The notes under the pieces are model-generated. The model was not told where the DNA came from, made no database searches, and worked only from the letters and a program-made list of their open reading frames with translations. A stretch of DNA of 60,679 nt from a virus (taxonomy: Duplodnaviria > Caudoviricetes): positions 1-60,679 of the IMG/VR virus record IMGVR_UViG_3300044724_003533. One strand, written 5' to 3'. Each line of letters starts with the position of its first letter. The stretch's first letter is position 1. Shown here one piece after another: positions 6,001-51,987 of the stretch. A program made the position numbers and the translations under genes.

Positions 6001-8282
6001 ATCCATAAAAATTCTCCAGCCTGCTGAACATTTTCCTGTATTGTTTCTTTAGTGCCTTCTTCAACAAAATTATATCCTTTAGATTTTAAGTTGTTGCTTA
6101 TGTTTAACAATCTTTGCTTGAAGTCTAAAGCGAATGTTTTTGGTTTATTTGATTTTCTAGCTTTTAATATAGATTTTCTTAATTGACTAACCAATGACTC
6201 TTGACCTTCTTTTCCTAACCAGTTTGTACGTGGACTTATAGGTCCAGTAGCCGCATACCATATACCAGTTAACTGTGAACCATCGTAAGCTAAAGCAGCC
6301 GCCTCTTCATCGTTAAATCCAGCTAATTTAGCTTCTTTCAATGTATTGTTATATCCTATAGCCGCTCCATACGAGCCTTGAAAAAGCATGGCATCAAATG
6401 TTGATTTTTTAACAGGTATTCTAATTCTAGACGCTGCTTTTCCACCTATAGCTTCCGCTAGTTGTAATGTTTGTTTATATTTTTTTACACTAGTAAATCC
6501 ATTTAAGGTAGCTAATGTTCTTACTTTAGCCGCTTTAGTTGCAAAAGAAACGCCTTTTTGACCAATAACTTGAGTTAAAACATTACCAAAAGTGTTTCCA
6601 CCTACTGTTAGATAACCTCTTAAAGAGTTATGTTCTTTAACAATACCTTCTTTTTCTATTTTTTCATCTAAAGACTTTAAGCTAAAAGGATCATTTATTT
6701 CGCTTACACTATAACCAGCTGAAACATTATATATAACACCTGACACTTGATCTTTAGCATATTCTACTCCATCAATTTTTATTGTTTTACCAGAGAAAGA
6801 AGTGTAATAAGATGAATCTTTAGCTAATTGAGTTTCAGCTTCACTATTTCTTAATCGCTGAACAAAGGTATCAGCTCCACCTAGTTCTAATGCAAAAGTA
6901 GATAAATCATACCAGCCGGTTAAAAAACCGTTTTTGGCCTCTACTATTAAAGAACCAGCGTTTGCCGCTGCTGCGTACCAATCACCTCTTTCATCTAATT
7001 CTTTAGCGTAATTTATTTTTTTCTGTAAATATTCTCTGTCTTTAGATGAAGAAATAGTAAACTGACTTCCTATATAGTCTTTAAAAGCGTTAGAGTCTAT
7101 AGAAGTGTAGTAAACGTCTGATTCATCTGGAACACTTAAAGCATTAATTAAATCTACTCTTGCGTCACCAAAAGTTGATGTTTTAAATTTACCAGGATCT
7201 TTTTTTATACTATATAATTTATTTTTTTGGTTTAATCTAGCATCTTGCTCGCTTTTATAAAGATTTAAATATCTTCTTAAATCTCTTTCTTTTGCTAACG
7301 ATCCATCTTGTAATCCTTCTGAGTCATCATATACACCGCTGTTTAGTTTTTCATTAAACTCTTCTGCAAAACCATTTCTATTTAAAAAACCTTCAAAGTC
7401 TATAGGATTTAAATTTGTTTGAGCTATAGCATCAGCTCCACCGTAATTATTTTCAATAAAAGAAGTTGAATTGTCCTTATTAAAATATAAATTAGGAAAA
7501 TCTAAGTCTAAATCGTTTTCTTCTATATAGCCATCTATATAAGACTCTATAGTTCCAATACCTTGCTTTTTTTCTTCTTCAAACTCTTCTTTTAAATCAC
7601 TCCAGAAGTTATCAGGTATTTCTTTTTTGGGTTTATCAAAGCCTAAAACATCGGCAGGTCTTCCAATAGGTTGAACTATTTGGTCTTCGGTTTTTAGATC
7701 TGTTTGCTTGGAAACTTCTATTTTTGGCGCTTCTAAAGAAAACTTAGAGTCAATATCACCTTGTTCAATTAAATAACTATTAGGTGCTGAATTTCCAGAA
7801 GCTCTGTTATAATAACTTTCATTTATAGTTTCATCAGGCGCTAAATTTCTTTGTATGTAAAAATCAGTTCTATCTTTAGAGCCTATTGGAAGTTGCTTCA
7901 ATATAGCTTTAGTTTTTACACCTCCAACATCATTGTCAAAGTCTGTTTGAGCTTTAAAACGAAGAGCTCTTTTATTTATAAGATCTAAATATCTTTCAGA
8001 AGTAGCCTCTTCGTCAACTATTGGCGTGAACTGAAATTGTCCATTTCCAGACTCTAAATTCTCGGACGCATCCGGTGTTTTGGGTGGTACAGTTGCATCC
8101 GTTGTTTCTGCAACACCCTCTATCTTTACTTCTTCTTTAGGTTTTAAATCTTCTTTTAAAACACTAGGCTGTTCAGAAACGCCATAATTGTTTTTCTTTT
8201 TCCACTCTTGAGTTTTAGCAATAACTTCTTCTCCAGATAAACCTTGTTCAAATAAAGAATTAACGTATTCTACTAGTTGCAT
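1..8282 (-). CDS. Giant (>2760 aa) virion/ejection-type polyvalent protein, runs off the window edge; contains zincin-like, HAD phosphatase and P-loop kinase domains
   Basis: ATG at 8282 (MQLVEYVNSLFEQGLSGEEV...). The same frame is open wherever I translated it, down to position 3 (...RRDGLKINVSESEIADAVQ). No stop in the window, so it is absent from the ORF track. Motifs: HEGGH 5259-5273, FDFDDTL 2115-2135, GGPGAGKT 1998-2021, ILTARP, YFADD. Confidence 0.85.
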   Translation of the reverse strand, partial: MQLVEYVNSLFEQGLSGEEVIAKTQEWKKKNNYGVSEQPSVLKEDLKPKEEVKIEGVAETTDATVPPKTPDASENLESGNGQFQFTPIVDEEATSERYLDLINKRALRFKAQTDFDNDVGGVKTKAILKQLPIGSKDRTDFYIQRNLAPDETINESYYNRASGNSAPNSYLIEQGDIDSKFSLEAPKIEVSKQTDLKTEDQIVQPIGRPADVLGFDKPKKEIPDNFWSDLKEEFEEEKKQGIGTIESYIDGYIEENDLDLDFPNLYFNKDNSTSFIENNYGGADAIAQTNLNPIDFEGFLNRNGFAEEFNEKLNSGVYDDSEGLQDGSLAKERDLRRYLNLYKSEQDARLNQKNKLYSIKKDPGKFKTSTFGDARVDLINALSVPDESDVYYTSIDSNAFKDYIGSQFTISSSKDREYLQKKINYAKELDERGDWYAAAANAGSLIVEAKNGFLTGWYDLSTFALELGGADTFVQRLRNSEAETQLAKDSSYYTSFSGKTIKIDGVEYAKDQVSGVIYNVSAGYSVSEINDPFSLKSLDEKIEKEGIVKEHNSLRGYLTVGGNTFGNVLTQVIGQKGVSFATKAAKVRTLATLNGFTSVKKYKQTLQLAEAIGGKAASRIRIPVKKSTFDAMLFQGSYGAAIGYNNTLKEAKLAGFNDEEAAALAYDGSQLTGIWYAATGPISPRTNWLGKEGQESLVSQLRKSILKARKSNKPKTFALDFKQRLLNISNNLKSKGYNFVEEGTKETIQENVQQAGEFLWINPILNKKAKTNFLQDTYSYQEAKTTSILSFATGGLLSQMKLPSFKPKANAMIANYSYIANNMEKAQQQLNRLVESGFATQAEADELVFNAKAIFNNTSRIPKWLDQNLVLPVARLMQQKQDKQNEKKNIAPNFHQEIDDQIENIDLEIDAYIKTSAETQRDKLQAGVESFLNKIRKAKGKVDMVPFDTTAEANAYRQELLEQGAEIMQSDNYGDMVVTSEGNKVLIIDNQVNTEDNIVTTGVHEGGHFVLSETIDQDPDAAKKMGNALVDEMFENENVTIKSNKIKRRLATYASQGTPTAVMMEEIMMMVSEGLIDGDIEFNETAKTRIGDLIRRTLQNVFGIKVKFKDGEDVLNFLRDYNRTIQTQRGGKAIARVATKGAKVDIADPGIEAARKIGRVKQEIDEETGQIKEVELDEVDLGVVSKESKRKQETVLESIDNLLPKNIKTKQEFDAWAQSERGGKVIADALKPGGPINNYIRSRGTKQESDKMLDDVLFRIYNFNPEAKRKDGSAVGPEAFGEKIFADTAWAKVTARTKLFEEGEKAKLEKRQDDTTKQIIGEETAETAIETDDLAKKPTETTSFNKDLLTTDFLDTIKVEETEAINEINKDLAEEKITEEEARTRKQKVTKNVIENKITQTITEAYKGRDVKGFKDLGSPKFPIPKSVAQLYADMFGIKTVDGLTKKAQNFYPRDREGLRNLQRFLIENSLSDYNRLPKTISDFGKATGIKQTKLGKIMYNDKGVKVGTAKQYRDIMQGKNITLTVQNGNQKGQPIEFNKPVKDISRGDLQQNLKTAWDFHTKNRALETLVPEQSKRIQAGAKFSKRITDQTLSDTQAAQEVVAIEKIANELGVNPEDVLVNINDNISKYKQLRNKLGLKSGGAKNISSVENALELSTTYKEFIKNSIPKGKTFSQLPKSAQQAIIDTVGFGDTRSTIGGRPLTYKEMTGGKKGYENLLKTAFGEDVLIGTGSNIPLVESVFAPRNWGGFRRKVEEIVLRDGITPEQAKIEVEKLLTAQGSNINDTIKANRELLNAGYSSLINIIKNNKNKKTLGSVADLLESQVNRATGIFKGMVPMTSFNMKPEKGDTKNQNKLMHNEHLLELFNANKEFLTLANDFVNGKINESQFRQKTRKLVDQLQQAVISERMRVQKDASGASVRDFVDPLTFLGKDAVNQIPIGTFKLSSGKDFTGLNMAEFIAENLSNSQIQKLGKISRGKLSAEGLLVKNILDNYKAYAELKKANNNIQPNSVKSSKRATNQEIISDLGNLDDALNQARRPDAPVKKIRVFDFDDTLARSKSQVLYTVPNVEGGFSEGTTNLKAIFMVGGPGAGKTNVGKGLQLGRRGYKVVNQDIALEAMKEEAGLPAKESDYTAEQRSTRSKLGAAARKAAVAKFDKYAAAGNGMVIDGTGASYNATTKKIKALEDAGYEVHMVVAMTPLETAIERNRARTERSLPDFVVKKTYENVQESLKKYREDFGDRLYEINTETIEYGKPLPNDFLQKVYAGINANKVGKVDASNFATQYDILESQGAQFDFREFSKVIEGQKGPLFSVAQKIAKARGTEDIFILTARPADAAKPIQEFMKANGIDIPLQNITGLGDGTAAAKGRWIASKAAEGYNDFYFADDAIKNVEAVKDVLSQVDVKSKVQQAKASKRITFDKVFNDIIEAKTGIESYKQFSAAKAKTVGSSKGKFTFFTTPSAEDFLGLLYKTLGKGKVGDAQMAFYKENIIDPYNRAEMAISQAKVAAGRDYKALKKQFKGVPKTLEKETGISKYSYQHAIRTYIWDSQGVEVPGLSKRDQKRLTDFIKADPELQAFADQLVNIQKGKPYPKPDKDWTAGNITTDVISGINKVNRAEYLQEWQENVDIIFSEKNMNKLEAAFGAKYVEALKDSLRAMKSGSNRPLGGDRVSNQILDWLNNSVGAIMFLNTRSAVLQTISAVNFINWGDNNILNAGKAFANQKQFWGDFLTLMNSDYLLERRDGLKINVSESEIADAVQ

Positions 8283-11905: not shown

Positions 11906-14900
11906 CTACGTTATGGTAAATAAATAGTTTGATGTTGAAGGAACCAACGGTACATTTGTACCAGTTCCAGCAGTTAATGTCCAAGTATAAGCGAAAGAAC
12001 TTCCTCCATACACCAAACAACCTCCAATTATTGTTTGATTTGTAGCAATAACATTTTTTAAAGTAGCTATGTCTACAAATTTAGCTGTCCAACCTTCTGT
12101 AGCCATGTTTCCGGTTCCAGTACCTCCTGTTGGATTTATTATAATATTGCTACTACCATTGCTAGATACTAAATTTTGCCAACTTGAAAATTCGCCACCT
12201 TGATTTCCACTTAGCCAAGCATACCACCCATTAACATTTGTACCACCTATTAAGCCACCATTAGGATCACAAACTCTAACAAATATAAATTTTCCTTCAT
12301 AAGAAACTCCTGTAGATGTATTTCCTGAACAGTTCCTATAATAACCTTCTAAAGTCCACTCTTGTAAATCACATATAACTAAACCAGTATTTACTATAGC
12401 TTGACATTGTACTGAGTCTCCTGGATCAGATACTTCATATGTTATAGTGTAAACATCTGAAGGCATATTTGCATCTTGATAACCAGTGTTAACTAAGTCT
12501 ATTTTTGCCGCTGAATTGAATGAAGCAGCGCCTGGGTTTTCTAAAGCAAAATAACCTGGACTCAATGTTTCTTCCCCGGGTGTTCCAGCGCCTCTAACTT
12601 CACTTATTTTAGTAAAAGTTAAATCCTTATGTCTTTGGCTATTGCCAAGCAAATCTGATGATCTCCAACCAGCGCCATTAACAGCTTTTAATTCACCAAT
12701 ATACCTAACGTTTGTTCCGCCGGGATAAAATGGAGCTAAAGGACAATCGTCCCAAAGTTCTGAAGAGTTAGCCGTATTTAATATTTGACCCTCTCCAACT
12801 GTTACAGCCGCAGAAACCTCTAGTTGACCTGGTGTTCCAGTTTGTAAAGTAGCAGAGGAGTTACTGGTAAACGCCGGCACTGTTATGTTGTTATTAACAG
12901 TTACAGTTGTTTGACCAACAACAGGCGTGTCTGCTTGTTTAGAAACGATATATGTTCCAGAAGGAACACTTCCAAAAGTGTTTGATGTAGATCTATATAG
13001 TATGTTATCTATATCTATAATTAAAGCCGCCCAATCGTATACTACAAAAGTGTTACTGTTAGAAACAGCATTTACAACTCCAAAAGATTGTAGTGGATCT
13101 CCTGGTGATGTAAAAGCAGTTCCAGTGGTTTGTAGTCCAGCTGGTAAAGGATAAGAAATATCTAATGTTGTAACATCCCAACCCGTACCTATATCTTCAC
13201 TACCTGTATATACTTTTATATCTGTTACAGAAGTTTGATCTTTTAAAACCTTTACATCTGAGGTGTTTCCAGTTGATGTTGGTATGTGTGGTTGTGTGTT
13301 GCCTAGACTTAAGTTTTGAGTTATGGCTATGGGTAGTCCATTCACAGTAGCTGAAAAAGTCAACGTAAAGTTTCTAGCTCCTTCGTCAGTTCCGTAATAT
13401 ATTTCAGCTACAAAACCACTCGCAGTTTTAAGCATATATTCATAACTACCAGGTGATGTTTCTTCAAAAGAAAATACAGGATTAGCAAATCCAAGCGCGG
13501 TGTATTCTGTTTGAACATTTATTCCATTATCATCAATAACACTATCTAAAGCTAAAGGTACATCAATATCTCCAGATGGTATAGCTGCTCCGAAGTTATC
13601 AACTAAATAAATAGGTGCTTGCAAACAGTTTTCACCAGATCTTAAACTTTCGTTGAAAGGATTATCATTCCAGTTTGAAAGACCGGCAGCACCGCTACCA
13701 CCTTCATTTTCATTTATTATAACATCGTTTATGTCTTGTATAAATCCAGTTGTTGATGTTTCCCAAAATATATCTAGTAAGCTTTTAACTGGTTCTGTTT
13801 CATAAACAGCTAAGTATTGTATACCTGGTGTTTCAGCGCTATATACATTTATTGAGTCTCCAAGAGTAACTGGCACAGCTGTAGAAACAACTAAACTATC
13901 TGCTTCGTTAAAATCTAGAAGTTGACCACCTGTTACTTGAACCACATTATTAACTTCAATTTCTAACGGAGGACTCGCTATAGATCCTGAAACGTTTAAA
14001 ACAACAGTTCCCTCAGGAACACCTGTTGTTGTTTCAACTATTAAACCTGGTACTATAGGGTCAGGGTCTACACTTAAAGACGAAAGTTCAAAAGTAGTTC
14101 CTGTAAAACCAGTTCCACCAACAGTACCTTGTCTTACGAAGCCACCCGCGGTAAAACCAGATCCAGCAACAACTAAGTCATCTGGAAACCCTGGTCCAAC
14201 AACTTCGTCTCCAATTTCTATGTCAGCTGATTGTCCAGAAACAGAAGTTAATTGAAGCGTGTCAGTAGTAGCTGTAACAGCTATAATACCACTAACCGCG
14301 GTAAAGTTTACATCAGCAACTTGCCCTATTTGTTTAGCCGTATTTATTCTAGCTATATAAGGATTAGATTCTACAGAGTAGAATTGAGGAAAATAATTTG
14401 GAGCTGGAGGATCTTGAGGGTTATAATCAAAAAGATCTATATTTGTAGCTACAGTTGACGCAAAATCAAAAGTTCTACCTGGATAATACTGTAAATTACT
14501 ATCACCGATGTTGCCTAAAGTTTCTGAAACTTCTACGTTTGAATTTTCAACTCTACCATATAGTTTAACAGAACTTCTAAACTGCTCTTGATCTGGACCA
14601 ACTTCGGTTAAATCTCTAGGTACTTTATTTATGTTATCACTTATTAAAGCTACGTGCGATGTTTTACCAATTTCTAAGCTTGTATTGTTTGGATATGCAG
14701 CCATTATACCAGGCAAATACACATTGTAATACTCTTGCTCGGTTTGCTTGACGACAACTTTAAATGTATACCAACCAAGAGGGTTATAATCACCAGACGT
14801 TGGATCTCCATTGTACACGCCTGGATCACCTGTAGTTGCTATTGTTTCGTTAAACAACATTTTTATAGAATTACCCCTCCATTCATCTGGTTGAACACTA

Positions 14901-17107
14901 GAGTCAATATATGGAGAGTATACGGTAGAACCTATAAATTTATTTTCACCGATTGTTATTAAGTCTTTATTGTCAGATAATATAACTCCTGATTGTCTAC
15001 CATATCTATCAGACAAAATAACTCCAACTTGATAGTTTCTATTTGTTTTTACACTATGGTTTGGATATTCTATAACGCTGCTAGTGTTTTTTGTGTCACC
15101 ACCTGGCTCTATTATTATAACTTGACCTAAATTTATATTAGCTGTTGTAGCATTGTCTATAGTTATTGTACCTGTGTTTCCACCTCCAGCTGTAACACTT
15201 GTTACTAGCGTTCCTTCTGGAATACCTGGACATATAACTATATAACCTATTTGTATAGTTGATCCGCCTTTAGGAGTATAGTTCGTAAAAGTTATTGTTG
15301 TAGAGCCAGAGGGTATAGCATCAGCGTCAACAGTTACTTCGTTTAAGCTAAATTCGCTTTTTTCTGTAACAGCCACATTATAGTTCAAATGATCTGGCGC
15401 TGAGTGTTTGTTTTGAAAGTTACCATATATAACTCTATTTCCAGATACTTCTTGAGCAAAAGCTCGTACTGGTATTTTATCATAAACTCTTATTAAGTCT
15501 TTTTCTGGTAATGTTTTAAAAGGTTTTTTAGACTCGTAGTTGTATAAATAGTAATCTGTTTCACCTATTGTTAAAACAGTATCTTCAGCTATAGTTTGTG
15601 CTGAACTTAATGTTATTGTCCCAGAAGTACTAGGGTTTTCATCTGGATTATCTGGCTCGTAATCATCTACAGTCACAACTGAGCTGCCTAATATACCGAA
15701 GCCTGTTATTCTATCGCCTACGTTTATACCGCCCTGAACATTATCAACAGTAAGAGTTGTTGTGGTTGTAGCTGCCGCTGCTTGACAAGTTGCTGCTGCG
15801 TTGAATATAGTATTAATATCAATAGAATCTACAACTTTAACAGACGGTTCATCTGATTCTTTGTAAAGTATTTCTAGTGATTTTACTTTTAATTTATTTT
15901 GTAATTCGTAGTTATCAAAGGGAAGTGGTATTCTAAGTTCTATGTTGTTTACTTTATTTTCCATAAAAGAAACTATAGAACTTCTAAAAGCTGCGTCTTG
16001 ATCATTTACATCTTGCACATTATCTGCTTCATCTTTTTTAACGTACATGAAATAACCGTCTTGCTTTGGTATAAATGTAGATTGTGTAAATGTAGAAAAC
16101 AAAGAGTACTCGTCGTCATCGAATTTAAATCTATATCCAAATCTAACAAATTTATCTTCTAAATAAGTAGGATCGCCAGCATAATCTTTATTGTAATAGG
16201 GATTTGCGTTAAAAACTATACTTTGAGTTATTTTATCTAATTCAGGCAAAGTACCACCAGTAACTGTTATTTCCCACGCGTTGGTGGAGTCATTGTAAGT
16301 AAAACTATCAACTGTAACGCCTGAGACTTCTACTATAGATGAAGGAATTGATTTTGTTGTATAATAAATTTTTGCACCAGTAGTCCCATATGTGCCAGGC
16401 ACTACTATATCACCTTCTAACGTGCTTAAGTTTACCTGCGTATCACCAGCTGTTACATCGTCTTTTATAATTCCTTTTCCTCCGTTTGGCAAATAAAAGC
16501 TAGATACATCTTTCATTGTTGACTCGTAATCTCCAGATGACAATTCACTTTCGGTAAATAGTTCTATAGCTTTATGAGGATTATATTTTGCTACAGATAT
16601 TTGATCTTCTGTTGTATAATACCTAGTTATTGTGCTAGCTTTTTGTATATTTATTTTTCTTGGCTGATTTCTATTATCTGTCCAAAACAATAAATTTTCC
16701 AATACATTCACGCCGTATATAGGGTGTTTAGTAGAAAAGTTTAAAAAAGCACCTTCAACTAAAGTTGTTAACGTGTTTGTATTTGAGTTGAATGCTATTA
16801 TAAAATGCTTCGCTGATGGATTATAGTAGTTTATATTACCATTGTGGTTAGTATAAAATAAATAAGCAACACCTGTAGAGTCGTCAACAACTTGGCCTAT
16901 ACAACTTAAGTTGCTAGTTCCGGTGTGATCACCTACATCAGCCGATTTTGTATTACCTAATACATTTTCTAAAGATCCAACTTCATCACCTTCAGATTTA
17001 TTAACCTGCACATTGACAGCATCTCTATATTCATTTTTGTCTAATATGCGAGCATCCAAGTCTTTATTCATCTTGGATTTTAAAAACGTATTTTTAGCTT
17101 TAGCCAT
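11906..17107 (-). CDS. Tail stabilisation protein (P22 gp10 / crAss muzzle-like) with inserted beta-rich repeats
   Basis: N-terminal KMNKDLDAR..EYRDAVN, LFWTDNRNQPRKIN, FGYRFKF..EYS and GNRVIYGNF motifs; 1733 aa. Confidence 0.7.
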   Translation of the reverse strand: MAKAKNTFLKSKMNKDLDARILDKNEYRDAVNVQVNKSEGDEVGSLENVLGNTKSADVGDHTGTSNLSCIGQVVDDSTGVAYLFYTNHNGNINYYNPSAKHFIIAFNSNTNTLTTLVEGAFLNFSTKHPIYGVNVLENLLFWTDNRNQPRKINIQKASTITRYYTTEDQISVAKYNPHKAIELFTESELSSGDYESTMKDVSSFYLPNGGKGIIKDDVTAGDTQVNLSTLEGDIVVPGTYGTTGAKIYYTTKSIPSSIVEVSGVTVDSFTYNDSTNAWEITVTGGTLPELDKITQSIVFNANPYYNKDYAGDPTYLEDKFVRFGYRFKFDDDEYSLFSTFTQSTFIPKQDGYFMYVKKDEADNVQDVNDQDAAFRSSIVSFMENKVNNIELRIPLPFDNYELQNKLKVKSLEILYKESDEPSVKVVDSIDINTIFNAAATCQAAAATTTTTLTVDNVQGGINVGDRITGFGILGSSVVTVDDYEPDNPDENPSTSGTITLSSAQTIAEDTVLTIGETDYYLYNYESKKPFKTLPEKDLIRVYDKIPVRAFAQEVSGNRVIYGNFQNKHSAPDHLNYNVAVTEKSEFSLNEVTVDADAIPSGSTTITFTNYTPKGGSTIQIGYIVICPGIPEGTLVTSVTAGGGNTGTITIDNATTANINLGQVIIIEPGGDTKNTSSVIEYPNHSVKTNRNYQVGVILSDRYGRQSGVILSDNKDLITIGENKFIGSTVYSPYIDSSVQPDEWRGNSIKMLFNETIATTGDPGVYNGDPTSGDYNPLGWYTFKVVVKQTEQEYYNVYLPGIMAAYPNNTSLEIGKTSHVALISDNINKVPRDLTEVGPDQEQFRSSVKLYGRVENSNVEVSETLGNIGDSNLQYYPGRTFDFASTVATNIDLFDYNPQDPPAPNYFPQFYSVESNPYIARINTAKQIGQVADVNFTAVSGIIAVTATTDTLQLTSVSGQSADIEIGDEVVGPGFPDDLVVAGSGFTAGGFVRQGTVGGTGFTGTTFELSSLSVDPDPIVPGLIVETTTGVPEGTVVLNVSGSIASPPLEIEVNNVVQVTGGQLLDFNEADSLVVSTAVPVTLGDSINVYSAETPGIQYLAVYETEPVKSLLDIFWETSTTGFIQDINDVIINENEGGSGAAGLSNWNDNPFNESLRSGENCLQAPIYLVDNFGAAIPSGDIDVPLALDSVIDDNGINVQTEYTALGFANPVFSFEETSPGSYEYMLKTASGFVAEIYYGTDEGARNFTLTFSATVNGLPIAITQNLSLGNTQPHIPTSTGNTSDVKVLKDQTSVTDIKVYTGSEDIGTGWDVTTLDISYPLPAGLQTTGTAFTSPGDPLQSFGVVNAVSNSNTFVVYDWAALIIDIDNILYRSTSNTFGSVPSGTYIVSKQADTPVVGQTTVTVNNNITVPAFTSNSSATLQTGTPGQLEVSAAVTVGEGQILNTANSSELWDDCPLAPFYPGGTNVRYIGELKAVNGAGWRSSDLLGNSQRHKDLTFTKISEVRGAGTPGEETLSPGYFALENPGAASFNSAAKIDLVNTGYQDANMPSDVYTITYEVSDPGDSVQCQAIVNTGLVICDLQEWTLEGYYRNCSGNTSTGVSYEGKFIFVRVCDPNGGLIGGTNVNGWYAWLSGNQGGEFSSWQNLVSSNGSSNIIINPTGGTGTGNMATEGWTAKFVDIATLKNVIATNQTIIGGCLVYGGSSFAYTWTLTAGTGTNVPLVPSTSNYLFTIT

Positions 17108-28430: not shown

Positions 28431-28679
28431 TTATACTACTTCAAGTTTTTCTTCTTCATCTATAATAGTATACTCGCCAGTTTTTAAGTCAATAGATATT
28501 TTACCGTATTCTTTTTCTAGCTCTTGCTTCTGTTTTTCTAAGTCTTCATTAACATCAGCGACTTTGTGTAGTAAAGCATGCTTTTGTGTTTCCAAAGAAC
28601 CTATGTTATTTAAAATAGAAGATAGCTCTTGTTGGTTTTTTACAATTTGTTCTAATTGTTTTTCTGTAATTTTTGCCAT
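28431..28679 (-). CDS. Small coiled-coil (prefoldin-like) hypothetical protein
   Basis: Heptad-rich 82 aa ending YGKISIDLKTGEY. Confidence 0.55.
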   Translation of the reverse strand: MAKITEKQLEQIVKNQQELSSILNNIGSLETQKHALLHKVADVNEDLEKQKQELEKEYGKISIDLKTGEYTIIDEEEKLEVV

Positions 28680-35664: not shown

Positions 35665-35924
35665 AAAACAACTACAACATCACTGACTTTAATAACGTGA
35701 TATGTTTCTTTTTCAACTTCTATTTTATGTCCAGCGTGTCTATCATAAAGTATAACACTACCTTTTTTTAAAGCATCTATCTCGTCTCCAGATGAAACAA
35801 CTGTAGCTTCCACGTATCTTATATCGTCTCTATGTGTTTCTGCTAAAAGAAGACCACCTTTTGTTTTGGTGGTACCTTCTTTAGCTTTTTTTATAATTAT
35901 ATTTCTACCTATTGCTTTCATCAA
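35661..35924 (-). CDS. groES: Co-chaperonin GroES
   Basis: TKGGLLL mobile loop, ATVVSSG, LKKGSVILY; adjacent to groEL. Confidence 0.85.
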   Translation of the reverse strand: MMKAIGRNIIIKKAKEGTTKTKGGLLLAETHRDDIRYVEATVVSSGDEIDALKKGSVILYDRHAGHKIEVEKETYHVIKVSDVVVVL

Positions 35925-37458
35925 TTCTTAAATTATTAATTACACAATCTGTAGATAATATTGTTGTTGCTACTGAAGCCGCATTTTTAAGAGCGCTTTT
36001 AGTTACCAGTAGTGGATCAATAATCCCTGCTCGTACCATATTTACTTCCTTGCCTGTAACCACGTTTAGCCCTTTGTTTTTAACTTTAGGATAAACAACT
36101 TCAAGACCTGCGTTAGTAAGAATTATTTCGTAAGGCGCTTTAATTGCTTGTAGCAACACTTGTTCACCTTCGCTCTTAGCTTTTATATTAGCAGAAGCGT
36201 TTAACAAGGCTATTCCACCTCCTGGTACTATACCCTCTTTTATAGCGGCTTTTGTAGCGCAGATAGCATCTTCGACTCTATCTGTTTTTTCTTTTAATTC
36301 TATTTCAGAATTAGCACCCACTTTTACTATAGCCACTTTAGCTGATAGTAGCGCTAGTCTTTTTTCAAGCTTGACAAGCTTATTAGGGTTTTTTTCTTTT
36401 AAAAGCTGTTCTTTTAATTCTTTTATAACACTAGCGACTTCTTCTGAAACACCATCCACTTGAAGTATTGTATCCTCGTGAGATGTTATGCTTTTAACGC
36501 ATTGACCTAGATGCTCCGGCTGTATCATATCCATATCATCGCCAAGATCTTCATTTATGATAGTAGCGCCAGTTAACAGAGATAAGTCTTGTAGCATTTG
36601 TTGCTTGCTTATACCGTAAGTTGGAGCGTCAATAACATTGACTTTAATGGCTCCTTTCATGCGGTTCATAGCTAGAGCTGATAAAACACCCTGTTCTAAA
36701 TCGCCTATAATAAGCAAAGGTTTGTTGTTTTTTATTACGTACTCTAGCACAGACTGAATCTGTCTTATTGTATCAACTGGTGATTCTAGTAAAAGCACTA
36801 ACGGCTTATCTAGCTCAGCAGTTTTAGTTGATTGGTTAGTAATGAAATGAGAGTTTTTAAGCCCTTTGTCATACTGAACGCCGTCTACGGTTTCAACGTA
36901 TGTTGTACCATCTGACGATGTTTCCATCATAACTACACCTGTGTTATCGACAGCTCTAAAAGCATCAGCAATTATACCACCTAACTCAGGATCGTTATTT
37001 GTAGAAATGGTTGCGATTTGATCAATCATATCGTCTTTAACCTCTACTGATAATTTTTTTAAATACGCTACAGTTTTTTCTACAGCGGTGTTAATACCGT
37101 CTTTAAGCTCTCTTGAGTTTGTTTTATTAGCAACTTTGTACGCTTCACTTAATATAGCATGCGCTAATACTGTAGCTGTAGTTGTACCGTCACCGGCTTC
37201 TTGCACTGTTTTGCGCGCTGCTTCTTTTAATAACGTAGCACCCATGTTTTCTACTGGATCTCTAAGTATTATAGAATCTGCAACTGTTACACCGTCTTTT
37301 GTTATGATTGGTCTACCAGTGTGATCTTCCAGCATCACACATTTACCGCTAGCACCAAGCGTGGAGCTAACGGCGTTTGTGAGTTTTTCAATTCCTTTAA
37401 ATACGTTAACTCTGGCTTCTTCGCCGAAGTTAAGGTTTTTGACTATTGCGTCTGACAT
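35905..37458 (-). CDS. groEL: Chaperonin GroEL
   Basis: ITKDGVTVA, AGDGTTTAT, GIVPGGG and GIIDP motifs; 517 aa; no GGM tail. Confidence 0.95.
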   Translation of the reverse strand: MSDAIVKNLNFGEEARVNVFKGIEKLTNAVSSTLGASGKCVMLEDHTGRPIITKDGVTVADSIILRDPVENMGATLLKEAARKTVQEAGDGTTTATVLAHAILSEAYKVANKTNSRELKDGINTAVEKTVAYLKKLSVEVKDDMIDQIATISTNNDPELGGIIADAFRAVDNTGVVMMETSSDGTTYVETVDGVQYDKGLKNSHFITNQSTKTAELDKPLVLLLESPVDTIRQIQSVLEYVIKNNKPLLIIGDLEQGVLSALAMNRMKGAIKVNVIDAPTYGISKQQMLQDLSLLTGATIINEDLGDDMDMIQPEHLGQCVKSITSHEDTILQVDGVSEEVASVIKELKEQLLKEKNPNKLVKLEKRLALLSAKVAIVKVGANSEIELKEKTDRVEDAICATKAAIKEGIVPGGGIALLNASANIKAKSEGEQVLLQAIKAPYEIILTNAGLEVVYPKVKNKGLNVVTGKEVNMVRAGIIDPLLVTKSALKNAASVATTILSTDCVINNLRIDESNR

Positions 37459-42883: not shown

Positions 42884-43015
42884 ATGCAATTTATACTAAA
42901 CTTAGAAAATGGTAAGCAGATAGATATGTCTAGCTATATCATGAAGCAAATGAAAGGCGAGATGACTCGCGAACAAGTACAAGATAAAATTAACGAATTT
43001 AAAAATCAGAATTAA
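42884..43015 (+). CDS. Small early protein (43 aa)
   Basis: MQFILNLENGKQIDMS... Confidence 0.55.
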   Translation: MQFILNLENGKQIDMSSYIMKQMKGEMTREQVQDKINEFKNQN

Positions 43016-43017
43016 CT

Positions 43018-43137
43018 ATGGCTACAAAATCATACACATTACTAAAAATCAGTTGGCGAATGTTTGACAAACACTACAACGATCTAACTCAAGAACAAAA
43101 AGATAAAGTATTAGAAAGATATTATGACTACTACTAA
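43018..43137 (+). CDS. Small early protein (39 aa)
   Basis: MATKSYTLLKISWRMFDKHYNDLTQEQKDKV... Confidence 0.55.
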   Translation: MATKSYTLLKISWRMFDKHYNDLTQEQKDKVLERYYDYY

Positions 43138-43543
43138 AACACTTTATATAGATATGGACGGCGTACTCGTCGACTTGCAATCTAACTTAGACAAGCAAGG
43201 TTGGCATCAGAATGTCTTCAAAGATCCGCCTCCAATTGATGGTGCTGTTGAAGCGTTCAATGAATTATGCTTCGATGAAGACTACGATGTCTATATTCTA
43301 TCGACTGCTCCGTGGAATATACCAAATTCTTGGACACAGAAACGCTTATGGGTTAGTAAATACTTAGGTGAAAAAGCTCATAAACGCTTAATTCTTTGTA
43401 ATCACAAGAATTTATTGCGCGGTGATATACTTATCGATGACAGAACTGCGAACGGTGCAGGTGAATTTGATGGTGAACTAATACAATTCGGTACAGAAAA
43501 GTTTCCAAATTGGGAACAAACACTTAAATACTTATTAAAATGA
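43124..43543 (+). CDS. 5'(3')-deoxyribonucleotidase (NT5C-type HAD)
   Basis: YIDMDGVLVD, ILSTAPW, K..W and LIDDR motifs. Confidence 0.85.
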   Translation: MTTTKTLYIDMDGVLVDLQSNLDKQGWHQNVFKDPPPIDGAVEAFNELCFDEDYDVYILSTAPWNIPNSWTQKRLWVSKYLGEKAHKRLILCNHKNLLRGDILIDDRTANGAGEFDGELIQFGTEKFPNWEQTLKYLLK

Positions 43544-45105: not shown

Positions 45106-45294
45106 ATGTATTGTAGATGTGGTAAAAAAGTACACCCTGTGAGGTTAGAATTAGGTTATAAAACGTGTGTTGATCACTCAACCACCCAAACATACTCGTA
45201 TGTTCCTATTATCGAGCACAAAACAGGTAATACAATACAAATTGTCAGTCAAGAAGTTAGCGCATCTGTGCACAGAGCTTGGCGACGTAAATAG
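45106..45294 (+). CDS. Small zinc-finger protein, DksA/TraR-finger-like
   Basis: CRCG..V...RL.LG...CVDH resembles the CxxCG..I...RL......CxxC finger. Confidence 0.5.
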   Translation: MYCRCGKKVHPVRLELGYKTCVDHSTTQTYSYVPIIEHKTGNTIQIVSQEVSASVHRAWRRK

Positions 45295-45302
45295 CTAGAC
45301 GA

Positions 45303-45387
45303 GTAGCTTAATTAGGTATGATTAAAGGCGGCTAAGTACAGTAACGCACGGCGGAAGCTACGAGCAAACAACTGTGACGCCGGCTCG
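45303..45387 (+). ncRNA. Putative structured RNA
   Basis: GTAGCTT/AAGCTAC stem (45303-45309 with 45355-45361) enclosing hairpins, then a GAGC/GCTC stem. Confidence 0.35.
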
Positions 45388-45407
45388 ATGACTACACATA
45401 TGTGAAT

Positions 45408-45505
45408 AGCTAGCGGGAACTAGGTATGGATGCAACAGGAGTTATTAAATTAACCAGAGTTCATTACTACTGACGAGTATGAGGGTTCGATTCCCTCGCT
45501 AGTTA
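45408..45505 (+). ncRNA. Non-canonical tRNA-like RNA
   Basis: AGCTAGC/GCTAGTT acceptor, GAGGG-TTCGATT-CCCTC T arm, discriminator A; no canonical D or anticodon arm. Confidence 0.6.
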
Positions 45506-45529
45506 CAAAGCGGCAGACCGGTATGCTGC

Positions 45530-45591
45530 TCCCTTACGGGAAACCTGTGCTTCAAAGCATCAAGCCTTTTAGGTTGAAAACAAGTAAGGGA
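45530..45591 (+). ncRNA. Putative multibranch structured RNA
   Basis: Perfect 8-bp TCCCTTAC/GTAAGGGA stem enclosing three short hairpins. Confidence 0.45.
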
Positions 45592-45595
45592 ATAC

Positions 45596-45674
45596 GGGGG
45601 TGATTTGGTGTTGACGTAGTAGAAAGCCTGCAAAGGAACTACTTCGGAAGACAGTTCGAGTCTGTCCACCTCCA
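45596..45674 (+). ncRNA. Mini-tmRNA-like RNA (tRNA-like domain only)
   Basis: GGGGGTG/CACCTCC-A acceptor with G3-U70; stemless D-loop ATTTGGTGTTGAC; short GTAGT/ACTAC helix; GACAG-TTCGAGT-CTGTC T arm. Confidence 0.7.
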
Positions 45675-45694
45675 CTAATTTTAAAAATACAACT

Positions 45695-51231: not shown

Positions 51232-51987
51232 ATGAAGAAGTATAATGTACAAAACTATATCAGATACAAAGAGGACTTAAAAAAGTCTATGCCATCTGAA
51301 AAGTTTTATGATTATTACAGCCGAGACGAGCTTATAATTAAGTTTTTACCGTTGGTAGAAAATTTAGCACGTAAGTTCTCAACAACACAACAAGCTTCAG
51401 GCGTGTTAAGTATAAACGACTTGATACAAATAGGATCTGAGGCTTTAATAAAAGCCGTAGACAAACTAGACTGGGAAAAATTAATTGACTCAGAAGACAT
51501 AGAAAAAACGTTAAAGTCGTTCTTTGCAAAACGAATTAAAGGGCACATTAGACGACGTGTAGACATGGCTAGAGGCGGTATACGCATACCAGAGCATAGG
51601 CTTAATGAAATACGTAAAAACCCAAAAGACAAAAAAATGGTTGCTATGTTTTTCAATAGCGTGTTTCTAAGTATTGATGCACAAGTAACCAATGACGATG
51701 AAGAAAATATGATGCATCAAATAGCTGATAAATCAGAGCCATATAACATACAGATACTTAATGTTTATTTAAAAGGTTTAATGAAAAAACATTTAACGCC
51801 TATTGAATACGAAGTGTTAAGATTATCTTACGGTCTAGACTGTGAAAAGCATTCAGCTAATTATATAGCAGGCAAATTAGCTATAAGAGGCACGAGCGCT
51901 CACGTTCGTGTTTCAGAGCTAAAAAAGCAAGCTGTGCAAAAATTAATAGACAACGTCGACCACTCGCAAGTGCTTGATTTTGTGTAA
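51232..51987 (+). CDS. RNA polymerase sigma-70 family factor
   Basis: RDELI...LPLVENLARKF, DLIQIG..ALIKAVDK, IRIP, and region 4 LTPIEYEVLRLSYGL..IA.KL...VSELKKQAVQKL. Confidence 0.88.
   Translation: MKKYNVQNYIRYKEDLKKSMPSEKFYDYYSRDELIIKFLPLVENLARKFSTTQQASGVLSINDLIQIGSEALIKAVDKLDWEKLIDSEDIEKTLKSFFAKRIKGHIRRRVDMARGGIRIPEHRLNEIRKNPKDKKMVAMFFNSVFLSIDAQVTNDDEENMMHQIADKSEPYNIQILNVYLKGLMKKHLTPIEYEVLRLSYGLDCEKHSANYIAGKLAIRGTSAHVRVSELKKQAVQKLIDNVDHSQVLDFV

What the first reader, a model, noticed from the sequence alone, without database searches (positions are those of the whole stretch)
45596..45674. Phage mini-tmRNA: alanylatable tRNA-like domain with no tag reading frame
Seen: 5' GGGGGTG pairs with CACCTCC to give G1-C72, G2-C71, G3-U70 and discriminator A73. 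Next comes a stemless loop ATTTGGTGTTGAC, a short helix (GTAGT/ACTAC capped by CCT-GCAA-AGG), TTCGGAA and a perfect T arm. Known: G3-U70 with A73 is the AlaRS identity element, and a stemless GGnnTYGAC D-loop is the hallmark of the tmRNA tRNA-like domain, which binds SmpB. Normal tmRNA has about 250-300 nt of pseudoknots and tag ORF where this RNA has about 15 nt. Inference: the phage makes a TLD-only RNA. It could titrate host SmpB/EF-Tu and block trans-translation tagging, act on stalled ribosomes without adding a degradation tag, or decoy tRNA/tmRNA-cleaving defence nucleases. CCA is not encoded (ACTA) and would need host addition.
Basis: partly seen in the sequence, partly recalled or inferred. 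Interest (0 to 1): 0.88.

Follow-up and report, generated by a model that had tools for sequence, protein, structure and literature searches.

The report
Phage tmRNA stripped to its tRNA-like domain
A marine flavobacterial phage encodes an 82-base remnant of the bacterial ribosome-rescue RNA (tmRNA) that keeps only the alanine-accepting tRNA-like part, a kind of RNA reported once before in a mycobacteriophage but apparently recurrent in phages.

Summary
Window 45596-45677 (+) scores as tmRNA in Rfam (53.1 bits, cut-off 47). The model's 304 internal positions (pseudoknots and tag frame) are replaced by 12 nt. ARAGORN finds no tRNA or tmRNA.

It is not a private deletion. Ten related IMG/VR phage contigs carry the same 81-83-nt RNA with compensatory changes. 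Another 36 carry, in the same slot, looser relatives that keep G3-U70/A73. By extrapolation there are about 400 instances, with strong covariation.

The kind is already in print. Mycobacteriophage DS6A has a "TLD only" tmRNA, reported to inhibit host tmRNA in E. coli (PMC4131195, PMC11915505). I located it; it has the same build.

The most likely function is a competitor of host tmRNA for SmpB, and probably for AlaRS, EF-Tu and stalled ribosomes, which blocks or replaces tagging. Function is inferred, not shown.

Verdict: a real, conserved new member of a known kind. Its breadth and the fast-changing cassette in this phage lineage are the new part. Interest is moderate.

The parts
45596..45602 (+). 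Acceptor stem, 5' strand (GGGGGTG), including G3 of the G3-U70 pair
   Evidence: Invariant in 11 of 11 family members. Positions 5 and 6 covary with their partners across 91 distinct class members.
45603..45615 (+). D-loop analogue without a stem (ATTTGGTGTTGAC), with the conserved GA, GG and GAC
   Evidence: Aligned to the tmRNA consensus GAucuGGaUUCGAC by Rfam. GG and GAC are invariant in the family.
45615..45622 (+). Helix 2 (tmRNA P2a equivalent), 5' strand
   Evidence: Three of 8 pairs have compensatory changes in the family. All 8 have them across the wider class.
45623..45638 (+). A-rich internal loop (AAAG), capping hairpin CCT-GCAA-AGG, and AA on the 3' side. This stands where a normal tmRNA carries PK1, the tag frame and PK2-4.
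   Evidence: Rfam puts 12 nt against 304 model positions. The AAAG, CC..GG and AA columns are conserved across 91 distinct sequences although the search pattern did not force them. DS6A has the same motif.
45639..45646 (+). Helix 2, 3' strand (CTACTTCG)
45647..45649 (+). Junction GAA (GGAA here, where the tmRNA consensus has GGAC)
   Evidence: alignment. In the wider class this junction reads G 79/91, A 89/91, C 71/91.
45650..45666 (+). T arm: stem GACAG/CTGTC and loop TTCGAGT
   Evidence: One compensatory pair in the family (C-G to G-C); 4 of 5 pairs covary across the class.
45667..45674 (+). Acceptor stem, 3' strand (CACCTCC, with U70), and discriminator A73
45675..45677 (+). 3' trailer CTA. 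CCA is not encoded.
   Evidence: The same trailer (discriminator, C, then TAA) follows 20 of 24 true tRNA genes in related phage loci.
45418..45508 (+). Neighbouring second tRNA-like element: 6-bp acceptor AACTAG/CTAGTT, a variable central hairpin, T arm GAGGG-TTCGATT-CCCTC, then A and CAA. It does not have alanine identity.
   Evidence: Conserved upstream of the mini-tmRNA in all 10 relatives aligned. Found by regex in the window plus 14 loci. No Rfam or ARAGORN call.
45295..45694 (+). 400-nt non-coding gap in the plus-strand early-gene arm. It holds both tRNA-like RNAs. The next ORF starts at 45695, 18 nt after the mini-tmRNA.
   Evidence: ORF list. No sigma-70-type promoter excess and no intrinsic terminator.

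Best explanation
Window 45596-45677 encodes a TLD-only tmRNA, also called CDS-less. It keeps the tRNA-like domain of tmRNA, helix P2a, the A-rich internal loop and the first pairs of P2b. These are capped by a GCAA loop where the pseudoknots and the tag reading frame would be.

Proposed mechanism, inferred:
1. The RNA is cut out of the early plus-strand transcript by the host tRNA-processing enzymes. RNase P cuts at 45596 and a 3' endonuclease cuts after A73.
2. The host adds CCA.
3. AlaRS charges it with alanine through G3-U70 and A73.
4. It binds host SmpB, and as Ala-RNA also EF-Tu. The phage encodes no SmpB of its own.
5. It therefore competes with host tmRNA for SmpB and for stalled, non-stop ribosomes.
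6. Because it has no resume codon and no tag frame, it reduces or abolishes ssrA tagging during infection.

Shown here: its identity, conservation, structure and distribution. Inferred: processing, charging, SmpB binding and the effect on trans-translation. The inference leans on what is reported for the DS6A homologue.
For: Identity:
- Rfam tmRNA 53.1 bits (cut-off 47), full-length model with 304 internal positions missing.
- No tRNA and no tagged tmRNA by ARAGORN.

Not an artefact:
- The identical 82 nt stands in an independent contig (L004).
- DNA runs of 7 other studies hold 0.66-0.94 of the sampled words of the region.

Conservation in the lineage:
- 10 of 61 ligase-linked related loci hold the canonical form at 98-108 bits. 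Four pairs change on both sides and 97.1% of cells are paired, against 44-54% in slid controls.
- 36 further loci hold looser forms in the same slot. G3-U70 is kept in 29 of 31 distinct sequences, and all 8 helix-2 pairs covary.

The wider class:
112 have 7/7 acceptor pairs and 6 more are register shifts.
- One acceptor type alone gave 110 stretches.
- Across 91 distinct sequences, 96.6% of cells pair (45-55% slid) and 20 of 23 pairs change on both sides.
- Features the pattern did not force are conserved: the 3' junction GAC, and the inner loop AAAG with its CC/GG hairpin base.

Precedent:
[quoted passage not shown] - I located the DS6A element at 28478-28560 (43.2 bits). It has the same build.
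- Truncated TLD-only tmRNA accepts peptidyl transfer in vitro (PMC3895274, passage).

Context:
- No SmpB, no CCA-adding enzyme and no tyrosine integrase in the 94%-complete record.
- The 3' trailer is the same as in the true tRNA genes of related phages.
- Short RNA-library contigs in 2 studies cover the element: X22, 141 nt at word depth 442; X19. This is a weak hint only.
Against: - SmpB binding, charging and processing are all inferred.
- In closely related phages, including the closest (L002, 97% ligase identity), the slot holds variants. These have lost the GAC...GGAC junction typical of the TLD but keep G3-U70. This fits a need for alanylation or for the acceptor/T-arm better than a need for SmpB binding.
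- By the sentence quoted from PMC4131195, inhibition in E. coli did not need chargeability. Simple SmpB titration therefore does not explain why G3-U70 is so strictly kept.
- It is unclear why blocking ribosome rescue would help a lytic phage. Related Cellulophaga phages carry a full, tag-encoding tmRNA instead.
- The nearest cultured relatives searched (Flavobacterium phage elemoE, MW202828, Cellulophaga phi19:3) have none, so the RNA is dispensable for that kind of phage.
- The host is unknown, and I could not compare its tmRNA.
- The RNA evidence comes from contigs only. It shows no transcript ends, and DNA carry-over is not excluded.
Confidence: 0.55

Rival explanations
1. Tag-less ribosome rescue. 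The charged RNA enters stalled ribosomes with SmpB and EF-Tu and donates one alanine. The peptidyl-RNA is then released by drop-off plus peptidyl-tRNA hydrolase, by an ArfB-type factor, or by further rounds. Ribosomes are freed for phage translation and the truncated proteins escape the degradation tag.
For: - Strict conservation of the alanine identity pair even in degenerate variants (29 of 31), which pure SmpB titration would not need.
- P2a, the internal loop and the base of P2b are conserved. These parts ride on the ribosome with the TLD.
- TLD-only RNA accepts peptidyl transfer in vitro (PMC3895274).
- Mitochondrial CDS-less tmRNAs co-occur with SmpB and are thought to help with incomplete mRNAs (PMC11915505).
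Against: - No release step is known for a peptidyl-TLD with an empty A site.
- The DS6A form is reported as an inhibitor, not a rescuer.
- Nothing here tests it.
Confidence: 0.2
2. Decoy or sponge in a phage-host arms race. The RNA imitates tmRNA or tRNA-Ala to absorb or mislead a host factor other than SmpB. Candidates are a nuclease that cuts tRNA or tmRNA, RNase R, or a sensor of defence systems.
For: - The slot behaves like a fast-changing cassette. The closest relative carries a different 71-nt form, with homology resuming inside the T arm.
- Central domains of 25-120 nt are hypervariable, while the acceptor and T arm are fixed.
- Tandem copies occur in L025 and L054.
- A second tRNA-like RNA with a variable centre lies beside it.
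Against: - No defence system aimed at tmRNA was identified here.
- No conserved partner gene: no protein family is shared by more than 7 of 84 sequence families.
- A decoy for a nuclease would not obviously need G3-U70.
Confidence: 0.12
3. A processing signal only. The tRNA-like fold serves as an RNase P / RNase Z cutting site that separates early messages. The excised RNA has no role of its own.
For: - It lies inside a same-strand gene array 18 nt before the next ORF, without promoter or terminator signals.
- In other phages such RNAs often abut tRNA genes (L098, L114, L147).
Against: Processing needs only an acceptor/T-arm shape. It does not explain the conserved G3-U70/A73, the tmRNA-type D-loop, the GGAC junction or the P2a/P2b motif. 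Ordinary tRNAs would serve as well.
Confidence: 0.06
4. A relic without function: a decayed phage tmRNA, or an attP-type fragment of the host ssrA gene.
For: - Related Cellulophaga phages carry a full 362-nt tmRNA with a similar TLD, so an internal deletion is a plausible origin.
- Maribacter phage Panino carries what looks like a 3' ssrA fragment.
Against: - Both halves of the TLD are present and pair perfectly.
- Compensatory changes are seen in the family and the class.
- No tyrosine integrase is found in the record.
- The same architecture recurs in 84 sequence families.
Confidence: 0.03

Closest known systems
TLD-only (CDS-less) tmRNA of Mycobacterium phage DS6A (Mao et al. 2009, as cited in PMC4131195 and PMC11915505)
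   Same: - Phage-encoded and about 83 nt.
- Acceptor stem with G3-U70 and A73, a D-loop without a stem ending in GAC, and a T arm.
- P2a helix, A-rich internal loop and a short CC..GG-type hairpin in place of the pseudoknots and tag frame.
- CCA not encoded (ACTA).
- Lies in an unannotated intergenic gap.
- Both match my model R1.
   Different: - Host phylum differs: Actinomycetota against (inferred) Flavobacteriaceae.
- No detectable sequence kinship beyond the shared tmRNA core.
- DS6A scores below Rfam's cut-off (43.2 bits), while the window scores above it (53.1).
- DS6A has CA rather than GA after the acceptor stem, so my strict pattern misses it.
- Inhibition of tmRNA was reported for DS6A or a similar molecule only, not for this RNA.
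- I read only citing passages, not Mao et al. itself.
Full-length phage tmRNAs (Cellulophaga phages phi38:1 and Calle; mycobacteriophage Bxz1 group; Melnitz two-piece form)
   Same: - Phage-borne ssrA.
- The TLD of phi38:1 (GGGGGCG..., D-loop ending TTTTGAC, trailer ACTAA) resembles the window's.
- The phage group is related (TerL 35% identity).
   Different: Those have the pseudoknots and the tag frame: 362 nt and 87 bits, or the permuted form with tag ANDNAPYEMALAA in L060. The window's RNA has neither.
CDS-less organellar tmRNAs (jakobid mitochondria; two Mallomonadaceae plastids, about 65 bp)
   Same: Natural tmRNAs reduced to the tRNA-like domain with no tag frame (PMC11915505, passages).
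   Different: They are organellar, co-occur with a dedicated nucleus-encoded SmpB, and are thought to serve their own translation system. The phage RNA must act on the host's system. Rfam's mt-tmRNA model was not reported as the best match here.
Laboratory TLD constructs of tmRNA
   Same: The same parts are retained, and they accept peptidyl transfer with SmpB and EF-Tu (PMC3895274, passage).
   Different: They are engineered. The phage version is natural and keeps a conserved internal loop and the stub of P2b.

Membership tests
tmRNA (Rfam RF00023) | Covariance-model score at or above the curated cut-off | tested here: met
   53.1 bits against 47; E 4.5e-18; model positions 1-374.
tmRNA (Rfam RF00023) | tRNA-like domain: 7-bp acceptor stem with G3-U70, A73, D-loop without a stem, T arm | tested here: met
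   Invariant or covarying in relatives.
tmRNA (Rfam RF00023) | mRNA-like domain with resume codon, tag reading frame and stop | tested here: not met
   Only 12 nt stand against 304 model positions. ARAGORN finds no tmRNA or tag. The apical part is a 10-nt hairpin.
tmRNA (Rfam RF00023) | Pseudoknots PK1-PK4 | tested here: not met
   There is no sequence left to form them.
tmRNA (Rfam RF00023) | Alanylation by AlaRS and binding of SmpB | not testable with these tools
   Only the identity elements can be seen. The phage has no SmpB of its own.
TLD-only / CDS-less tmRNA (DS6A type) | Complete TLD, with helix 2 closed by a short hairpin and no tag frame, total length about 60-90 nt | tested here: met
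   82 nt. Same build as DS6A 28478-28560. R1 matches both.
TLD-only / CDS-less tmRNA (DS6A type) | Conserved as such, not a private deletion | tested here: met
   10 relatives carry the same form. 112 of 120 pattern hits pair fully, and 20 of 23 pairs covary.
TLD-only / CDS-less tmRNA (DS6A type) | Inhibits host trans-translation | not testable with these tools
   Reported for DS6A or a similar molecule only.
Canonical tRNA (RF00005 / ARAGORN) | Cloverleaf with D stem, anticodon arm and anticodon | tested here: not met
   ARAGORN: 0 genes in the window. In Rfam the tmRNA model, not tRNA, is the reported match at this place.
attP fragment of host ssrA | Only the 3' part of the gene, next to an integrase | tested here: not met
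   Both halves are present. No Phage_integrase match in the record. Serine recombinases were not searched.

The most novel reading that the evidence does not exclude
TLD-only tmRNAs are not a DS6A curiosity. They form a widespread and structurally constrained class of phage RNAs.

- By extrapolation there are roughly 400 strict-pattern instances in IMG/VR.
- At least 84 sequence families were fetched, in many genomic contexts.

In this flavobacterial podophage lineage the locus is a fast-evolving cassette.

- Canonical TLD-only RNAs alternate, even between near-identical phages, with degenerate anticodon-less RNAs.
- These variants keep only the alanine identity, the elbow and a helix 2, and carry a hypervariable central domain.
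- A second tRNA-like RNA lies beside them.

That pattern would mean an ongoing phage-host conflict centred on alanyl-tRNA-like molecules. The target could be trans-translation itself or a defence that reads or cuts tmRNA. Alanylation, not merely SmpB binding, would be the selected property.
Probability: 0.35. Interest if true: 0.75.

Novelty: new member of a known kind. Interest (0 to 1): 0.55.

Why it matters
Trans-translation is the main ribosome-rescue and protein-tagging pathway of bacteria, and it is a drug target. A natural RNA that phages use to disarm or re-purpose it would be a compact genetic tool. It would also show that phages manipulate ribosome quality control.

So far the literature I could search treats the DS6A molecule as a single oddity. 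The scans here suggest instead that the design recurs in many unrelated phages, with conserved details: G3-U70, the GGAC junction and the P2a/P2b internal loop. It is also nearly a fixture of one marine flavobacterial phage lineage.

That makes three questions directly testable:
- What do phages gain from touching trans-translation?
- Why is alanylation conserved?
- What drives the rapid turnover of the central domain?

Tried and rejected
- **Folding energy alone** does not single the element out (z = -1.67).
- **DNA similarity to cultured phages** found nothing useful: no match for 501 nt, and only T-arm-sized chance matches for the 82 nt.
- **The ligase protein search against cultured phages** gave only distant hits of 37% or less.
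- **The genome-contig scan** was swamped by the 3' ends of ordinary bacterial tmRNAs, whose acceptor strands do not pair. Only a few true minis were seen by eye (Poribacteria L188/L193/L217, Pirellulales L232, Saccharibacteria L202/L252, and L250, L277). I draw no count from it.
- **ARAGORN 'tmRNA' calls overlapping minis** in L068, L075, L079, L080 and L142 have implausible tags and were rejected. L137 is a true full tmRNA (tag VNNDYALAA), so its pattern hit is a false positive.
- **A partner gene:** clustering 2,969 ORFs within 3 kb of 173 minis gave no family shared by more than 7 of 84 sequence families.
- **Hammerhead idea:** the CTGACGAG in the upstream element was considered and dropped, because there is no GAAA core and no Rfam hit.
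- **A permuted or two-piece tmRNA spanning 45295-45677** was considered and rejected. The downstream element has both acceptor strands of its own, and I saw no tag-like frame when reading the gap by eye.
- **Promoter and terminator scan:** 8 promoter-like sites against 4.6 expected and 0 terminators. This is uninformative, and Bacteroidota promoters are not covered.
- **Parts of the region without RNA-contig cover** say nothing.
- **Maribacter phage Panino's 26-bit hit** looks like a 3' ssrA fragment beside a tRNA-like gene, not a TLD-only RNA.
- **Mao et al. 2009** is not in the library and I saw only citing passages. Supplementary tables of PMC11915505 and PMC9004378, which may list further phage tmRNAs, were not seen.
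- **Claim of 'not in print':** it rests on searches of this library only.

Full report
**What is there.** The window is an IMG/VR virus record of 60,679 bp, estimated 94% complete, with about 34% G+C. It has two diverging gene arms. The minus-strand arm (1-41343) carries structural and packaging genes:
- terminase large subunit;
- tail proteins;
- a GroEL-type chaperonin;
- very large ORFs of more than 2,760 and 1,733 aa.

The plus-strand arm carries small early genes followed by an ATP-dependent DNA ligase, a sigma-like factor and a primase-helicase. The terminase is closest to an uncultured podovirus (64% identity). Next come Flavobacterium, Maribacter, Cellulophaga and Tenacibaculum phages at 31-43%. 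The host is therefore probably a member of the Flavobacteriaceae; this is an inference. The finding lies in a 400-nt gap without ORFs (45295-45694) inside the plus-strand arm.

**The observation.** Rfam's tmRNA model matches 45596-45677 from its first to its last position at 53.1 bits (curated cut-off 47, E 4.5e-18). It skips 304 internal model positions, against which the window has 12 nt. ARAGORN reports no tRNA and no tmRNA anywhere in the window. A degenerate pattern for 'both halves of a tmRNA TLD within 90 nt' matches once in the window and in none of 100 shuffles. Folding energy alone is not remarkable (z = -1.67). One refinement: the central helix has 8 pairs (45615-45622 with 45639-45646, one U-U mismatch), then an AAAG internal loop, the CCT-GCAA-AGG hairpin, and AA.

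**Not an artefact or a private deletion.** Using the ligase 3 kb downstream as an anchor, I fetched 61 related loci from IMG/VR.
- Ten of them hold the same RNA at 81-83 nt. One is identical (L004).
- In this small family four pairs change on both sides, three in helix 2 and one in the T stem. 97.1% of cells pair, against 44-54% when partners are slid.
- DNA runs of seven other studies hold 66-94% of the sampled words of the region.

**A cassette, not one gene.** A covariance model built from the family (R1) found 38 weaker matches (28-46 bits) in 36 further loci, at the same distance upstream of the ligase. These are looser relatives of 71-164 nt.
- Their 5' ends read GGGAGTG or GGGCGTG.
- They have a shorter D-loop that keeps GA and GG, a helix 2 of quite different sequence in each, a central domain of very variable length, a T arm, and the 3' end CAC(T/G)TCC-A-CTA.
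- G3-U70 is kept in 29 of 31 distinct sequences. All eight helix-2 pairs covary, and 96.4% of cells pair against 46-52% slid. That alignment was fitted to the model, which favours it.
- Rfam scores three of the four variants in the five loci tested as tmRNA, below the cut-off (33-42 bits), and none as tRNA. L002's variant gave no Rfam match at E up to 1, and L038's gave only a truncated 19-bit match.
- The closest relative of the window (L002, ligase 97% identical) carries a 71-nt variant in the slot. Its homology to the window stops at 45293 and resumes at 45654, inside the T arm.

Altogether 46 of 61 loci carry such an RNA. Of the 15 without a match, six have too little upstream sequence to judge.

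**Neighbours in the slot.**
- True tRNA genes (Met, Gln, Gly) lie nearby in many of these loci.
- 20 of 24 of those tRNA genes are followed by the same trailer as the mini-tmRNA: discriminator, C, then TAA. The missing CCA is therefore the rule in these phages, not a peculiarity.
- A second tRNA-like element lies about 90 nt upstream (window 45418-45508). It has a 6-bp acceptor stem, a variable central hairpin and a T arm, without alanine identity. It is conserved in all ten relatives and occurs in 14 loci besides the window. Neither Rfam nor ARAGORN names it.

**The wider class.**
- 112 have seven of seven acceptor pairs, including at the two positions the pattern left free. Those positions show eight different complementary dinucleotide combinations.
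- Six more are shifted by one base, and R1 finds them one base upstream. L137 is the 3' end of a true tmRNA. L126 has six of seven acceptor pairs, and ARAGORN calls that exact span tRNA-Leu, so it may be a true tRNA rather than a mini.
- Restricting the pattern to the window's acceptor type gave 110 stretches without reaching the limit. 33 of them were among the first 120. If the first 120 are a fair sample, the pattern has roughly 400 matches in 2.9 million viral contigs. This is an extrapolation.
- It is also an undercount of the kind, because DS6A itself does not fit the pattern.
- From the two scans I kept 173 loci with 135 distinct sequences in 84 families (85% identity).
- Aligned to R1, 91 distinct sequences pair in 96.6% of cells (45-55% slid), and 20 of 23 pairs change on both sides. 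Again the alignment is model-fitted, and the pattern fixed five acceptor pairs.
- Columns the pattern did not fix are nevertheless conserved: the 3' junction G-A-C (79, 89 and 71 of 91), the inner loop A-A-A-G, the CC/GG base of the capping hairpin, and A-A on the 3' side.
- Comparison with Rfam's consensus (GAC-helix-GAa-cacccc) suggests what these are. They appear to be P2a, the P2a/P2b internal loop and the first pairs of P2b of an ordinary tmRNA, capped by a loop. That equivalence is my inference.
- Contexts differ widely: beside tRNA genes, between terminase and portal, next to helicases. No protein family accompanies more than 7 of the 84 families.

**What is already known.**
- Hudson, Lau and Williams (PMC4131195; passages read) list 'Mycobacterium phage DS6A (TLD only)'. 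[quoted passage not shown]
- The 2025 tmRNA database paper (PMC11915505; passages read) describes CDS-less tmRNAs in mitochondria and in two plastids. [quoted passage not shown]
- I found the DS6A element at 28478-28560, unannotated between gp33 and gp34. It has the same parts, down to the A-rich loop, a CCGC..GCGG hairpin and an ACTA end.
- Full-length phage tmRNAs also exist in the neighbourhood of this lineage. Cellulophaga phages phi38:1 and Calle_2 have a 362-nt tmRNA (87 bits) whose TLD resembles the window's and also ends ACTAA. A distant ligase relative, L060, has a permuted tmRNA with tag ANDNAPYEMALAA.
- Six full-text searches found no systematic account of TLD-only tmRNAs in phages. 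The library lacks most subscription journals, and I could not see supplements.

**How it most likely works.**
- *Shown:* a conserved, structurally constrained, tmRNA-derived RNA gene without a coding part, in a lytic-type phage. The phage has no SmpB, no CCA-adding enzyme and no tyrosine integrase.
- *Inferred:* host tRNA enzymes excise it, the host adds CCA, and AlaRS charges it. It binds SmpB and EF-Tu and competes with host tmRNA at stalled ribosomes, so that tagging is reduced.
- *In its favour:* the DS6A precedent and in-vitro work with TLD constructs.
- *Against a pure SmpB sponge:* the strict retention of G3-U70, and variants in sister phages that have lost the GAC/GGAC junction but not the alanine identity.

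For that reason I keep tag-less rescue and an arms-race decoy as live rivals.

**Expression.** There is only a weak hint. Short contigs from RNA libraries of two studies cover the element (X22: 141 nt at word depth 442; X19). They come from relatives, show no transcript ends, and do not exclude DNA carry-over.

**Verdict.** The kind is already known, so this is a new member of it. What appears new is its breadth among phages, its conserved inner motif, and the rapidly changing cassette of alanine-identity tRNA-like RNAs in this flavobacterial phage lineage.

Noticed in passing
window 45418-45508: A second, unnamed tRNA-like element about 90 nt upstream of the mini-tmRNA. It has a 6-bp acceptor stem (AACTAG/CTAGTT), GG in a D-loop-like stretch, a central stem whose loop varies from a few to about 45 nt, a T arm, then A and CAA. 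It has no alanine identity. It occurs in the window plus 14 related loci, twice in L011.
   Followed up: partly
window 45293-45410: The rest of the non-coding gap looks mosaic. A hairpin AGCTA-GACGAG-TAGCT followed by TAATTAGGT recurs in relatives. By eye, 45340-45375 resembles the central domain of the L062 variant RNA. RNA-library contigs of relatives skip 45331-45380.
   Followed up: no
L025:6977-7158; L054:5394-5812; L019:7933-7982: Tandem or paired copies of the alanine-identity tRNA-like RNAs in single phages. L019 also has a 50-nt acceptor/T-arm 'minihelix' without alanine identity.
   Followed up: no
L060:17235-17560: A distant ligase relative (41% identity) carries a permuted two-piece tmRNA (tmRNA_permuted, 95 bits) with a credible tag ending ...YEMALAA. 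ARAGORN's tag call for it is wrong.
   Followed up: partly
L392 (Cellulophaga phage phi38:1, 26803-27164) and L393 (Calle_2, 42950-43311): Full-length 362-nt tmRNAs in cultured flavobacterial podophages. The TLD is similar to the window's mini, and CCA is likewise not encoded. They are a possible ancestor form of the mini.
   Followed up: partly
L394:1455-1592 (Maribacter phage Panino): A tRNA-like gene is directly followed by what looks like the 3' end of an ssrA gene (26 bits). This is attP-like and fits the integrase reported for this phage.
   Followed up: no
L188, L193, L217, L232, L202, L252, L250, L277 (bacterial genome contigs): A few apparently true TLD-only RNAs lie in bacterial MAG contigs (Poribacteria, Pirellulales, Saccharibacteria and others). 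The L232 sequence is close to a GC-rich viral family (L063, L065, L085, L110, L158). I did not check whether these lie in prophages.
   Followed up: no
window 3-8282 and 11906-17107 (minus strand); 35905-37458: Two giant ORFs (more than 2,760 aa, open at the window end, and 1,733 aa) and a phage GroEL-type chaperonin. A sigma-like factor lies at 51232-51987.
   Followed up: no
L068, L075, L079, L080, L142: ARAGORN calls long 'tmRNAs' with implausible tags that end on TLD-only RNAs. Automatic annotation may therefore mislabel such minis as full tmRNAs.
   Followed up: yes
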